Shown piece by piece: positions 35,215 through 46,108 of a DNA stretch of 64,000 nt. The first letter of the stretch is position 1. The number at the start of each line of letters is the position of its first letter. A program made the translations under genes and the position numbers. Below the pieces are notes generated by a model. It saw only the letters and a list, made by a program, of their open reading frames with translations. It was not told the DNA's origin and searched no databases. The DNA comes from Eledone cirrhosa (lineage: Eukaryota): NCBI GenBank assembly GCA_964016885.1, contig CAXHJY010001623.1, positions 1 through 64,000 on the forward strand, written 5' to 3'.

Positions 35215-35268
35215 ATAAAATATTAAACAAATAATGAACAAACAATTCCTTATATTAAACAAAAAAAG

Positions 35269-35423
35269 TTCACTATTTAACGATCGTTTCTAGGGTATAT
35301 ATGTGTTATAATTGGTATGCATATTCAACAGATCTATGTACAAAATTATACAAAATTATACAAATTATCAAGATTAAATATACATACCTAACACATATAT
35401 ACGCCGTCTTCAGAAATAATGAA
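35269..35423 (-). ncRNA. Type I hammerhead ribozyme (left arm)
   Basis: Reverse complement of 45900-46054. Confidence 0.75.
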
Positions 35424-36243
35424 GTATATTTATTGATAATAACAACAATTCAAAATATCAGTTCAAAATTGACCAATGAAAACACAAAGGGTTAAAAGCA
35501 GTTCGGTGTGTGTATATACATGTAAAATCCTTACACATATTTTACAATAATGTGTGTATAATTTGTATGCGCATACTAAAAAGATGGATGCAAACACAAA
35601 ATTTCAAGGTTAATATCTCTGTAAGCTTAATGCGCTGATAAGATGCGCATTGATACTTATGGAGTCAAGCATATAAATATATTTTTTCATACTCACACAT
35701 ATCAGTATAATCACACATACATGCGCGTATATGCATAAATATACACATAACCACGAACATACAAACACACACACTCCCCCACTCACATTTATATATGTGG
35801 ATATAAAATCATAAGCACATAGAAATTAAGTCACTCACATAAAACACTGGCACACACATTTCAAGATCAAGATACAGAAATTAGGTGGGAGGGGGGGGGA
35901 GGGGTCTGTATTCAATTGTCTGAGCAGACTGCCTAATATAAATGTATCTATAAATTAAGAAAAATAAAAAAATAAAAACAATAAAATATAATAAATATAA
36001 TATAATGTACATACACATACAGATATATATACACATACATACATGTACGCGCACATAGAGATATTTACGCATACACACATACACACATACATATACAGTC
36101 ATACACACACATACACTTACACGAACATACACATACACATATAAAAAGATATATATATACACACACACACGCGCAACACATACACACATACACATATATA
36201 TAAAAAATAGATAATAAAGATATATATCCATATATATATATAT

Positions 36244-36294
<51 letters not shown>

Positions 36295-36383
36295 TATACA
36301 TATACATACACATACATCTAAATATACATACACATACATACACACATACATGTACATACATGTACATACATATACGCACATCG

Positions 36384-36425
<42 letters not shown>

Positions 36426-36759
36426 TCACATAGACATAAAGATACATACACACACAACTTACATACACACGTATATATATATATATATATAGATGTACCT
36501 TCATACATAGAATTAGATATATAATCATACATACATATGCACCTACTTATACTCATATAAGTAAATACATACGCTTCCATATATGTGTATATACATAAAA
36601 AACAATACCACCTCACCAAACTCAGACATACAAATGAAAATAATAATAAAAAAACGCATATGTATATACATACACACACGCATTAATAGAGATATATATA
36701 TATACACACATACATACACATATATATATATACATACACACACATACATATACACATAC

Positions 36760-36806
<47 letters not shown>

Positions 36807-36937
36807 TAGACTCATATATATATATATATACATACATATATATAAACATATATATCCACACACTCATACCACCATAAATACACATACAAACACCCACATG
36901 TATATATATATATATATCTATATACACACACGTATAC

Positions 36938-36972
<35 letters not shown>

Positions 36973-37134
36973 CACACACATAAAAAACAGACATGCACAT
37001 ATATATATATATATATATTTCATTACTCTTATATATACACATATTATATATACATACACAACCTCACTTATACACATATACACATAAGTTATATTACAAT
37101 AATAATAAAGAATAATATACATATATATATATAC

Positions 37135-37166
<32 letters not shown>

Positions 37167-37278
37167 ATACATACATACACATACATAATACACATAAATA
37201 TATACATACATAAATACACACATACGAATAAAGACATATATTCACACATAGACACCTATATATATATATATATATATC

Positions 37279-37324
<46 letters not shown>

Positions 37325-42269: not shown

Positions 42270-43980
42270 TAACATTATTCTAGAAATTAATTTAATTTAA
42301 ATGTTAGTTAACCTATAAATTTAATTTAATTAATATTTTATTACAGATGAGAAAATATTATGTAATCATAAATTGTGAAAAACCTTTAAATATTACTAAT
42401 ATATACTTAGTAATTTAATTTATAGATTAATTTTAATTTATTTAAACCTTTTATTATAATTCTTTTACAGATAAAATATAACAAAATAATATCATGTATC
42501 CAATGACGGAGAAAGAATTTTTAGTATTATAGACCTAATTAATATACATTTTGGAAATATATTTATTATTTGGTTTTAGTTTTAATCAACCTAAAACTTT
42601 AATTTTAATTTGCTTAAAATTAGTATCCTTATACAGACGAATTGCAGAATGTCATGTAATCATAGAATGGGATGTGTTTTGGATATATACCTAGTTAATA
42701 TATTCTGTGCAATTTTTTGAAAAAGATATGTATATGTATATGTATATGTATATGTGTGTGTTGTGTATGTGTATCTGTATGTATGTTTATGTGTGTATAT
42801 ATGTATATATGTATATATATGTATATATATATATATATGTGTGTATATGTATGTATATGTGTATGTGTATGTATATGTATATGTATGCGTATTAATTTTG
42901 ATTTTTATTTGCATATAATTATATTATGCTATTGATGAAATACAATATCTGCTTTATGTATTGTATACCTAATTAACATATACTAATTAACGTATACTAT
43001 TGAAATAAATATATAATTTTTAATTTAGTTAACATATAATTTATATGCTACTACCGATGTAATACTTTATTTTATTTTTATTTGGGTTTCTTTTCCCTAT
43101 TACTAAATTCATCTCCTAATATTGATACCATAACGTTATTAACTTTAATTTAGTTATAATGTAATTAATAATCTACTACTGTTTGACTTCAAAATTCTGC
43201 TTCAAATATTATAAACCTAACTAATTTACACCTTAGAAATCAATATGTTGACTATCTTTGGTTTAGTTAACATATGATTAATGGTATACTTATTTATTTT
43301 GAGATGCATAGATTTCGTATTTCCTAGCACTGAAAATATGTAAGAACATACATTGAATTAAGATACGGAAAATATTATATGTTTCTTGAAACATATATTT
43401 ACTTTGATCCCCTTCTCCAAACCCCCCCTTTCCCCCATACTATTATCATCTGTATTTGTAAGCGTCTATGTATGAATATATATGTAGGTAGGTGTCTATA
43501 TAGGTTTGGGTATTTATATCTAAATATAAAAATACATATATGAGCATGCAAATATGAATGTAAGATTGTGTGTGTATATATGATTGTACATACATATGTA
43601 TGTATATATGTGTATATATATGTATTATATATGTATGTGTATGTGAATGTGTTGTATGTATATGTGTATGTATGTGTATATATGTGTATGTATGTGTATG
43701 CTTGTATATATAGGAATATATATATGTGTATATATGTATGTATATGTATATGCGTGTATGTATGTATGTGTATATGTGTTGTGTATATATATGTATGTCT
43801 CTCTATTTATATGTTTATCTTCGTATCTATGTGATATATGTGTGTGTGTGTGCACGTATGCATATGTATGTGTTTGTGTGTGTTTGTATGTGTGTGTGTA
43901 TATATGTGTATGTGCGCACACTCACATACACATATATATATATATATATGTGAGTGTGTATGTGTGTCTGTGTGTGTGTG

Positions 43981-44026
<46 letters not shown>

Positions 44027-44140
44027 GATATATATATATATATATATATAGGTGTCTATGTGTGAATATATGTCTTTATTCGTATGTGTGTATTTATGTA
44101 TGTATATATTTATGTGTATTATGTATGTGTATGTATGTAT

Positions 44141-44172
<32 letters not shown>

Positions 44173-44334
44173 GTATATATATATATGTATATTATTCTTT
44201 ATTATTATTGTAATATAACTTATGTGTATATGTGTATAAGTGAGGTTGTGTATGTATATATAATATGTGTATATATAAGAGTAATGAAATATATATATAT
44301 ATATATATGTGCATGTCTGTTTTTTATGTGTGTG

Positions 44335-44369
<35 letters not shown>

Positions 44370-44500
44370 GTATACGTGTGTGTATATAGATATATATATA
44401 TATATACATGTGGGTGTTTGTATGTGTATTTATGGTGGTATGAGTGTGTGGATATATATGTTTATATATATGTATGTATATATATATATATATGAGTCTA

Positions 44501-44547
<47 letters not shown>

Positions 44548-44881
44548 GTATGTGTATATGTATGTGTGTGTATGTATATATATATATGTGTATGTATGTG
44601 TGTATATATATATATCTCTATTAATGCGTGTGTGTATGTATATACATATGCGTTTTTTTATTATTATTTTCATTTGTATGTCTGAGTTTGGTGAGGTGGT
44701 ATTGTTTTTTATGTATATACACATATATGGAAGCGTATGTATTTACTTATATGAGTATAAGTAGGTGCATATGTATGTATGATTATATATCTAATTCTAT
44801 GTATGAAGGTACATCTATATATATATATATATATACGTGTGTATGTAAGTTGTGTGTGTATGTATCTTTATGTCTATGTGA

Positions 44882-44933
<52 letters not shown>

Positions 44934-45022
44934 CGATGTGCGTATATGTATGTACATGTATGTACATGTATGTGTGTATGTATGTGTATGTATATTTAGA
45001 TGTATGTGTATGTATATGTATA

Positions 45023-45079
<57 letters not shown>

Positions 45080-46108
45080 ATATATATATATATGGATATA
45101 TATCTTTATTATCTATTTTTTATATATATGTGTATGTGTGTATGTGTTGCGCGTGTGTGTGTGTATATATATATCTTTTTATATGTGTATGTGTATGTTC
45201 GTGTAAGTGTATGTGTGTGTATGACTGTATATGTATGTGTGTATGTGTGTATGCGTAAATATCTCTATGTGCGCGTACATGTATGTATGTGTATATATAT
45301 CTGTATGTGTATGTACATTATATTATATTTATTATATTTTATTGTTTTTATTTTTTTATTTTTCTTAATTTATAGATACATTTATATTAGGCAGTCTGCT
45401 CAGACAATTGAATACAGACCCCTCCCCCCCCCTCCCACCTAATTTCTGTATCTTGATCTTGAAATGTGTGTGCCAGTGTTTTATGTGAGTGACTTAATTT
45501 CTATGTGCTTATGATTTTATATCCACATATATAAATGTGAGTGGGGGAGTGTGTGTGTTTGTATGTTCGTGGTTATGTGTATATTTATGCATATACGCGC
45601 ATGTATGTGTGATTATACTGATATGTGTGAGTATGAAAAAATATATTTATATGCTTGACTCCATAAGTATCAATGCGCATCTTATCAGCGCATTAAGCTT
45701 ACAGAGATATTAACCTTGAAATTTTGTGTTTGCATCCATCTTTTTAGTATGCGCATACAAATTATACACACATTATTGTAAAATATGTGTAAGGATTTTA
45801 CATGTATATACACACACCGAACTGCTTTTAACCCTTTGTGTTTTCATTGGTCAATTTTGAACTGATATTTTGAATTGTTGTTATTATCAATAAATATACT
45901 TCATTATTTCTGAAGACGGCGTATATATGTGTTAGGTATGTATATTTAATCTTGATAATTTGTATAATTTTGTATAATTTTGTACATAGATCTGTTGAAT
46001 ATGCATACCAATTATAACACATATATACCCTAGAAACGATCGTTAAATAGTGAACTTTTTTTGTTTAATATAAGGAATTGTTTGTTCATTATTTGTTTAA
46101 TATTTTAT
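41056..46108 (+). mobile_element. Inverted, further-truncated copy of the same PLE (right arm)
   Basis: Reverse complement of 35215-40249. Visible differences are one A/T change (39674/41631) and microsatellite lengths. Confidence 0.95.
45900..46054 (+). ncRNA. Type I hammerhead ribozyme with long stem II (right arm)
   Basis: Stem I UUCAUUAUUU/AAAUAGUGAA (10 bp), CUGAAGA at 45910-45916, GAAA at 46033-46036, palindromic stem III ACGAUCGU, and GUU cleavage triplet ending at 46044. Confidence 0.75.

What the first reader, a model, noticed from the sequence alone, without database searches (positions are those of the whole stretch)
35215..46108. 10.9-kb Penelope-like palindrome with ribozyme-terminated 5-kb arms
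Seen: two ~5.0-kb arms (35215-40249 and 41056-46108) lie head-to-head around an 806-bp spacer that carries the RT core. They are nearly identical and each ends in a hammerhead. Known: PLEs often insert as partial tandems or with an inverted 5'-truncated copy. Inference: this is an unusually large, very young example made by template switching. It could extrude a cruciform, or give a ~5-kb RNA hairpin (ADAR or siRNA substrate). Against a fold-back artefact: symmetry stops at the element boundary, and the flanking arrays keep the same C-on-plus polarity rather than flipping.
Basis: partly seen in the sequence, partly recalled or inferred. Interest (0 to 1): 0.75.

Follow-up and report, generated by a model that had tools for sequence, protein, structure and literature searches.

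The report
Head-to-head Hydra Penelope retroelement insertion
This 11-kb mirror-image stretch is two shortened copies of a young, abundant jumping gene (a Hydra-type Penelope-like retroelement) joined head to head inside a TA-rich repeat, which is this family's usual layout, and its sister copies suggest that both halves were likely copied from one RNA at two fixed start points in a single insertion.

Summary
The palindrome is real and the coordinates are exact, but it is the family norm. The arms differ by one substitution and three microsatellite indels. The element is a Hydra-clade Penelope-like retroelement with a 6.77-kb unit. Of 65 loci sampled on contig C1, 46 are head-to-head pairs, none is tail-to-tail, and 4 have both arms of 5 kb or more.

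All 51 two-armed loci with both ends resolved have one end near +64 and the other near +201 from the predicted hammerhead cut. Arms and tandem units within a locus are near-identical (arms 0.08% apart, loci 1.4%). Seven of 32 long pairs stop at the same point (0.7 expected).

Best reading, inferred: both ends of a DNA cut prime reverse transcription on one RNA, possibly circular, and the cDNAs are end-joined. Simple fold-back fits worse but is not excluded. No read spans this junction. Inverted copies with a one-sided tail are in print, and this scan already reached the two-primer reading on other DNA of this genome.

The parts
26895..35214 (.). Left target array, (TA)n with TACA/CATA units
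   Evidence: TRF; C-on-plus polarity
35215..41055 (-). Left arm: 5'-truncated copy spanning -5996 to +64 relative to the predicted hammerhead cut (short end, no tail)
35269..35423 (-). Type I hammerhead-like motif, left copy
   Evidence: mirror of the right copy
39036..41055 (-). ORF: RT, thumb, Asn/Lys-rich insert, CxCX5C linker, GIY-YIG endonuclease. It lacks about 141 N-terminal residues of the 813-aa family ORF, so it has no start codon
40250..41055 (-). 806-bp unpaired spacer holding the RT core motifs; present only in the left arm
41055..41056 (.). Blunt head-to-head junction, found once in the assembly
41056..46108 (+). Right arm, paired part, -5190 to +64 (thumb-linker-endonuclease reading frame, then about 3.9 kb of microsatellite-rich 3' region and the pLTR)
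45900..46054 (+). Type I hammerhead-like motif: 10-bp stem I, CUGAAGA core, long stem II, GAAAC, 2-bp stem III with a GAUC loop, predicted cut after GUU at 46044
45903..45903 (+). Position -142, the modal 5' end of short arms; candidate transcription start (A of an initiator-like TTCATT; consensus recalled)
46082..46092 (+). Copy of the stem I 5' strand that is predicted to out-compete stem I when the RNA begins at -142 (candidate off-switch)
   Evidence: fold
46109..46245 (+). 137-nt one-sided tail (+65 to +201), element 5' region; the last 3 nt are shared with the array
46243..50575 (.). Right target array, same polarity as the left

Best explanation
It is one young insertion of a Hydra-clade Penelope-like retroelement, and both arms were likely written in a single event in which the two 3' ends of a cut in the TA-rich array each primed reverse transcription on the same element RNA. 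Shown: the layout, the two fixed outer ends (+64 and +201), and the near-identity of arms and tandem units within a locus. Inferred steps: (1) a dimeric RT-endonuclease cuts both strands of (TA)n. (2) One target end anneals through 2-4 nt of TA-like sequence at +64 and the other at +201 of the sense RNA. (3) The trailing RT displaces the leading cDNA, so both can run for kilobases; where it does not, the +201 arm is only a piece of the tail. (4) The RTs stop at -5996 and -5190, and the cDNA ends are joined by end-joining; second strands are then filled in. The template is likely either the uncut transcript starting at -142 (giving the mini-palindromes) or a hammerhead-generated monomer, possibly circular (giving long arms and identical tandems). 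This copy lacks the ORF start and is predicted to be non-autonomous.
For: End rule: 51 of 51 two-armed loci with both ends resolved have one end at +59..+64 and one at +197..+203 (50 of 50 in the table, binomial p = 2e-15; 43 of 43 in the C1 series chosen only by the motif search). Orientation: 29 head-to-head and 0 tail-to-tail neighbours among the first 100 of 1,120 motif hits; 46 of 65 loci two-armed after fetching. Arms here are not nested. The +64 arm reaches further 5' in 27 of 50 loci, the +201 arm in 9, and 14 are equal; in 10 of 50 the +201 arm is tail only. Same template: arms differ at 52 of 61,974 sites (0.084%) against 1.42% between loci. 7 of 32 long pairs end within 30 nt of the same position (shuffle mean 0.69, 0 of 20,000 reach 7). 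Tandem units inside a locus differ by 0-1 per 657 nt of pLTR, so each event re-copies one template (12 of 16 loci gave rows). 11 of 26 arm ends between -131 and -144 fall at -142. Junctions look end-joined: 23 with inserted bases, 8 blunt, 9 with 1 nt and 16 with 2 nt or more of overlap, of 56. Array polarity runs through the insertion in 11 of 11 informative loci. In vitro, the Poseidon element PAc cleaves and extends both strands, starts at two internal RNA sites that delimit the tail, uses uncut RNA and is modelled as a dimer (PMC11167929, parts 1-2 of 4 read).
Against: One substitution is carried by both arms of this locus and by no other copy in the assembly (2 exact hits). That is what a cDNA fold-back or gene conversion predicts; under my model it needs a source copy absent from the assembly (the nearest sampled ORFs differ at 6-7 of 2,020 nt). 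Same-point stops and arm identity are also predicted by fold-back. There is no pile-up of 5' ends at the predicted cut (+1), so nothing shows that the ribozyme cleaves in vivo. No sampled tandem copy starts at -142. 19 of 65 C1 loci show only one arm. Strand displacement by a PLE RT and a circular RNA were not tested. Junction overlaps come from x-drop extension and hand curation, so they are approximate. Gene conversion could also equalise tandem units; the private-variant count was inconclusive.
Confidence: 0.55

Rival explanations
1. Fold-back or self-priming: one cDNA (or an antisense template, as proposed in PMC3846280) turns back on itself, and one end is then trimmed at +64 by the endonuclease, with deletions at the centre.
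For: The private variant is shared by both arms. 7 of 32 long pairs stop at one point, and arms are near-identical. 16 of 56 junctions have 2 nt or more of overlap. It is the published reading of head-to-head PLE junctions (PMC3846280 passages; EN-mediated tail resolution in PMC8557442 passages).
Against: This junction is blunt and the arms are not nested. In 27 of 50 loci the tail-less arm reaches further 5', and 10 have tail-only arms, which would need systematic large one-sided deletions or an antisense template. 31 of 56 junctions have no overlap to prime on. The -142 pile-up sits on a sense-strand initiator-like motif.
Confidence: 0.22
2. Two RNA molecules from the same source locus, held in one dimeric particle (for example through the palindromic GAUC stem III), are each copied once.
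For: It explains non-nested arms without strand displacement. Arm lengths are uncorrelated once the minis are removed (rho 0.13, n = 31). PLE hammerheads are reported to act as dimers (PMC7761336 passages).
Against: It does not predict same-point stops at arbitrary positions (7 of 32 against 0.7 expected). No locus of 34 has arms from different subfamilies although about 1,100 motif copies exist.
Confidence: 0.15
3. Two separate insertions or a later rearrangement, homogenised by gene conversion.
For: The array is an insertion hot spot (several LINEs here and in paralogues). The shared private variant fits conversion.
Against: It cannot give 51 of 51 short/long end pairs or 29 to 0 head-to-head over tail-to-tail.
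Confidence: 0.04
4. Sequencing or assembly fold-back artefact.
For: Unplaced 94.7-kb contig; no read or contig in 4 runs spans the 41055/41056 junction. Polishing could have equalised the arms.
Against: The flanks are not mirrored, the arms are not nested and both ends obey the family rule. Raw Illumina reads of other samples hold strand-switch joints of the same type at 45902/45903, 45982/46110 and 46033/46199.
Confidence: 0.04

Closest known systems
Hydra clade of Penelope-like elements (Craig et al. 2021, PMC8557442), e.g. Hydra-1_Obim, Penelope-13_HM
   Same: C-terminal GIY-YIG, RW[K/R] and DKT motifs, CxCX5C linker, CxxC and CxH around the conserved E/N, canonical hammerhead, (TA)n targets. 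Penelope-13_HM is listed with an inverted 5'-truncated copy.
   Different: Unit of 6,771 bp against 1.1-3.0 kb for the 27 listed families; about 4 kb of microsatellite-rich 3' region; hammerhead about 155 nt with a very long stem II against 80-100 nt sizes listed; Asn/Lys-rich insert after the thumb.
PLE insertions with an inverted pLTR and a one-sided tail (Penelope; Adineta Pen2a, PMC3846280; Fig. 2 legend of PMC8557442)
   Same: Head-to-head inverted 5'-truncated copy, partial tandems, tail at one end only.
   Different: The tail is 137 nt rather than 30-40. It is obligatory on exactly one arm in 51 of 51 resolved loci, and the inverted copy often runs to 4-6 kb.
PAc (Poseidon, Anolis) in vitro mechanism (PMC11167929)
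   Same: Two internal start sites delimiting the tail, AT-rich targets, both strands extended, uncut RNA as template.
   Different: PAc starts inside the ORF without target homology. Here both ends lie upstream of the ATG (+354) and end in 2-4 nt that match (TA)n. The parts of that paper I read do not model inverted copies.
L1 twin priming (recalled, no call)
   Same: Both target ends prime on one RNA, giving an inversion joined by end-joining.
   Different: In L1 the second site is variable and the two parts barely overlap. Here both sites are fixed and the arms overlap by up to 6 kb.
Non-LTR retrozymes (PMC7761336 passages; bioRxiv 10.64898/2026.07.22.740005 listing and passages)
   Same: Type I hammerhead, tandem copies, a circular RNA template proposed.
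   Different: Retrozymes are small and non-coding; this is an autonomous-type family with an 813-aa ORF.

Membership tests
EN+ Penelope-like elements | Single ORF with PLE-type RT and GIY-YIG endonuclease | tested here: met
   813-aa ORF in full-length copies; YRDD and VY..YIG motifs conserved with 12 homologues. Pfam gives no significant hit, so this rests on motifs.
EN+ Penelope-like elements | pLTR / partial tandem or inverted 5'-truncated copy, with a tail | tested here: met
EN+ Penelope-like elements | Type I hammerhead motif in the pLTR | tested here: met
   CUGAAGA core in 44 of 46 distinct copies, GAA in 46 of 46, NUH GUU 43 / GUA 3. One stem II pair varies G-C 34, A-U 8, G-U 4. Stem I has one non-pairing cell in 31 sequences. 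No Rfam hit.
EN+ Penelope-like elements | Ribozyme self-cleavage | not testable with these tools
   No RNA data; no 5'-end pile-up at +1.
Hydra clade | RWK-like N-terminal motif and DKT in place of DKG | tested here: met
   RWR and SDKT in full-length copies (definition). This window's copy has lost that region.
Hydra clade | CxCX5C linker; CxxC and CxH flanking E/N; CCHH absent | tested here: met
   CNCRNKTNC, CRLC, CNH. The two Cys between VY and YIG are 8 residues apart and not conserved among homologues.
Hydra clade | Insertion into (TA)n | tested here: met
   TA-type arrays of 13 nt or more on both sides in 49 of 51 loci.
Hydra clade | Short element (<3 kb) | tested here: not met
   Unit 6,771 bp. 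The paper says 'generally short', a descriptive trait rather than a diagnostic one.
Hydra clade | RT phylogeny with named Hydra references | not tested
   No named reference proteins were available to the alignment tools.
Naiad/Chlamys | N-terminal endonuclease, no canonical hammerhead | tested here: not met
   The endonuclease is C-terminal and a hammerhead is present.
Nematis/Neptune | CX2-5CxxC linker and CCHH motif | tested here: not met
   The linker is CxCX5C.

The most novel reading that the evidence does not exclude
This family replicates through a ribozyme-made circular RNA that is read by two RTs at once, one from each end of the DNA cut, starting at fixed sites 137 nt apart and displacing each other's cDNA. 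One mechanism would then account for pLTRs, identical tandems, the one-sided tail and multi-kilobase palindromes of Penelope-like elements, and would make the family a steady source of perfect 10-12-kb palindromes in an animal genome.
Probability: 0.3. Interest if true: 0.72.

Novelty: new member of a known kind. Interest (0 to 1): 0.4.

Why it matters
The locus itself is one of hundreds and is predicted to be inactive. The family is useful because how PLEs form tandem/inverted insertions is stated as open (PMC8557442 passages). Here the two start sites, the likely RNA 5' end and the one-template signature can be read from the genome to the nucleotide, which gives direct predictions for an in vitro assay. 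It also shows that palindromes of 10-12 kb, some with almost no spacer, persist in this assembly.

Tried and rejected
(unmasked self-BLAST) timed out and was redone masked. Rfam, Pfam on the PLE ORF and PDB gave nothing significant. The 63 homologues carry no source names. Naiad and Nematis were first guesses from recall, rejected on domain order and linker. One search was swamped by microsatellite noise and cut; it was redone. In one search my structure string was one character too long, so its stem I and III rows are wrong; they were recomputed and only the stem II and core rows are used. No RNA holder was listed; this is not evidence either way. Laying 4 runs on the junction gave no joint; these are other samples or contigs that drop rare variants. 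The search for an empty allele found only paralogous segments (3 examined, none with the PLE, arrays too variable to fix the site). The test for gene conversion by private variants was inconclusive: 46 shared-private and 26 differing sites in 36,871 paired sites, and 64 private in 29,286 unpaired sites, 24 of them from one locus. Tandem units were too alike to tell which one templated the inverted arm. No bias of the tail toward one array polarity (7 to 4, p = 0.55). Literature: six searches. In one search the only two listed papers with 'twin priming' had no 'pLTR'. Subscription papers and bioRxiv supplements were not searchable, so absence from print is not established.
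Full report
Observation. A global alignment of the two halves gives identity from 35215/46108 to 40249/41056 with four differences: indels of 6, 10 and 2 bp in (TA)n runs and one substitution in an A/T run. The 806-bp spacer carries the RT core of a minus-strand ORF (39036-41055); the right arm begins in frame after it. Both flanks are TA/TACA arrays with C on the + strand (731 C / 7 G and 386 C / 3 G), so they are not mirror images. A type I hammerhead-like structure folds at 45900-46054 (z = -7.24); Rfam does not detect it. 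Across 46 distinct copies the core is conserved and stem changes keep pairing. Positions below count from its predicted cut after 46044.

Family. Full-length copies have a 6,771-bp unit and an 813-aa ORF starting at +354. The motifs match the published definition of the Hydra clade (PMC8557442, section 11 and supplement part 2 read), but the unit is more than twice as long as any of the 27 listed families. No tree against named references was built. A 28-nt motif has 1,120 exact hits in the 3.0-Gb assembly (control 0). This copy lacks about 141 N-terminal residues. Three paralogous segments at 95-99% identity lack the insertion.

The layout is the norm. The first 100 hits, all on contig C1, form 65 loci with 29 head-to-head, 0 tail-to-tail and 6 direct neighbours. 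I fetched all 65. 46 are two-armed and 19 show one arm. Four of the 65 have both arms of 5 kb or more, so the finding is at the large end but not exceptional. Its junction occurs once in the assembly.

The end rule. The right arm continues 137 nt past the matched region with element sequence, so neither arm contains the other. Every two-armed locus with both ends resolved has one end at +59..+64 and one at +197..+203: 43 of 43 in the C1 series and 51 of 51 with eight loci chosen otherwise, including this one. Six loci with an unresolved end were left out. One resolved locus was left out of the table because its junction was not mapped. Both ends finish in 2-4 nt that match (TA)n. The tail-less arm reaches further 5' in 27 of 50, the tailed arm in 9, and 14 are equal; in 10 the tailed arm is only part of the tail.

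One template per event. Arms differ at 52 of 61,974 sites over 34 loci (0.084%) against 1.42% between loci. Seven of 32 long pairs stop within 30 nt of the same position; 20,000 shuffles average 0.69 and never reach 7. Tandem units inside a locus are as alike as the arms (0-1 mismatch per 657 nt of pLTR; 12 of 16 loci gave rows; neighbouring copies 3-7% apart in two of them look like separate insertions). Short arms pile up at -142 (11 of 26 ends between -131 and -144), on an initiator-like motif (consensus recalled). An RNA starting there is predicted to fold stem I's 3' strand with a downstream copy at +38..+48, which would keep the ribozyme off. Of 56 junctions, 23 have inserted bases, 8 are blunt (including this one), 9 overlap by 1 nt and 16 by 2 nt or more.

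Mechanism. The simplest account is two-ended target-primed reverse transcription on one RNA from two fixed sites, with strand displacement and end-joining. It agrees with in vitro work on PAc, which cuts and extends both strands from two internal sites and is modelled as a dimer (PMC11167929, parts 1-2 of 4 read). Identical tandems of two to three units would follow if the long template is a ribozyme-made circle, and they would imply the displacement that the model needs; this is inference. I reached the two-ended reading. Against the model: one substitution is shared by both arms and absent from the rest of the assembly; a spacer variant is also unique and a third is a marker of 18 copies. 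No 5' ends cluster at the predicted cut, and fold-back also predicts identical arms and same-point stops. The published explanation is self-priming on an antisense template (PMC3846280, passages).

Artefact. No read or contig in four runs spans this junction, so the locus itself is unconfirmed. Raw reads of other samples do hold strand-switch joints of the family type: at 45902/45903 (4 and 1 reads, 1 contig), 45982/46110 (72, 26 and 50 reads, one start each) and 46033/46199 (2, 0 and 5 reads). With unmirrored flanks and rule-abiding ends, an artefact is unlikely.

An 806-bp spacer argues against cruciform extrusion (recalled). A hairpin RNA needs read-through from a flank, because the predicted starts point outward; no RNA run was listed, so this is open.

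Novelty. Inverted 5'-truncated copies, one-sided tails and (TA)n targeting are described (PMC8557442 passages; PMC3846280). I did not find the strict one-short-one-long rule or a one-RNA two-primer model in six searches, which cover open papers only. PMC7761336 and bioRxiv 10.64898/2026.07.22.740005 were seen as passages only. This scan's earlier notes reach the two-primer and start-site readings on other DNA of this genome; they are not independent support. Verdict: a new, unusually long member of a known clade in a known kind of arrangement, with a testable mechanistic signature; interest 0.4.

Noticed in passing
window 18571-18780: A 123-bp stub of the same family (+64 to -59, minus strand) inside another TA/TACA array, followed by a 9-nt match to the tail end repeated four times at 22-bp spacing. 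It may be a minimal two-armed insertion with slippage.
   Followed up: partly
G000 C1:49,909,047-49,918,908; C957 (arms meet at about 22,860); C380 (about 51,120): Sister palindromes of about 10-12 kb with almost no spacer (both arms end at -5491, at -6163, or at -6129/-6100). They are better candidates for cruciform or instability than this locus.
   Followed up: partly
G000 C1, 10 of 29 head-to-head pairs: Mini-palindromes of about 550 bp whose arms both stop at -131 to -144, each with a different junction, so they arose independently.
   Followed up: yes
window 1197-6104 (-): A 1,636-aa uninterrupted ORF with no significant Pfam hit, next to an (ACC)n array at the contig start; about 17 near-full-length copies at 85-100% in the assembly, within a duplicated segment.
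   Followed up: partly
window 12176-16493 (+), 21994-26207 (-), 50577-52215 (+), 58613-59652 (+), 63051-64000 (+): Other non-LTR elements share the arrays: an RT with zf-RVT, an EN-RT with an upstream Myb-like ORF, and three fragments of a PHD-bearing LINE. The C25 paralogue holds the EN-RT element as an inverted pair.
   Followed up: partly
window 60118-60606 (-): GIY-YIG fragment of a different Penelope-like family (Pfam E = 1.4e-6).
   Followed up: no
window 6724-8605: An older inverted repeat at 70-78% identity centred near 7.6-7.7 kb.
   Followed up: no
L102, L103 (C1:307.67 Mb, 308.00 Mb): Two loci with the same layout, probably one insertion duplicated; counted as two of the 19 single-armed loci.
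   Followed up: no
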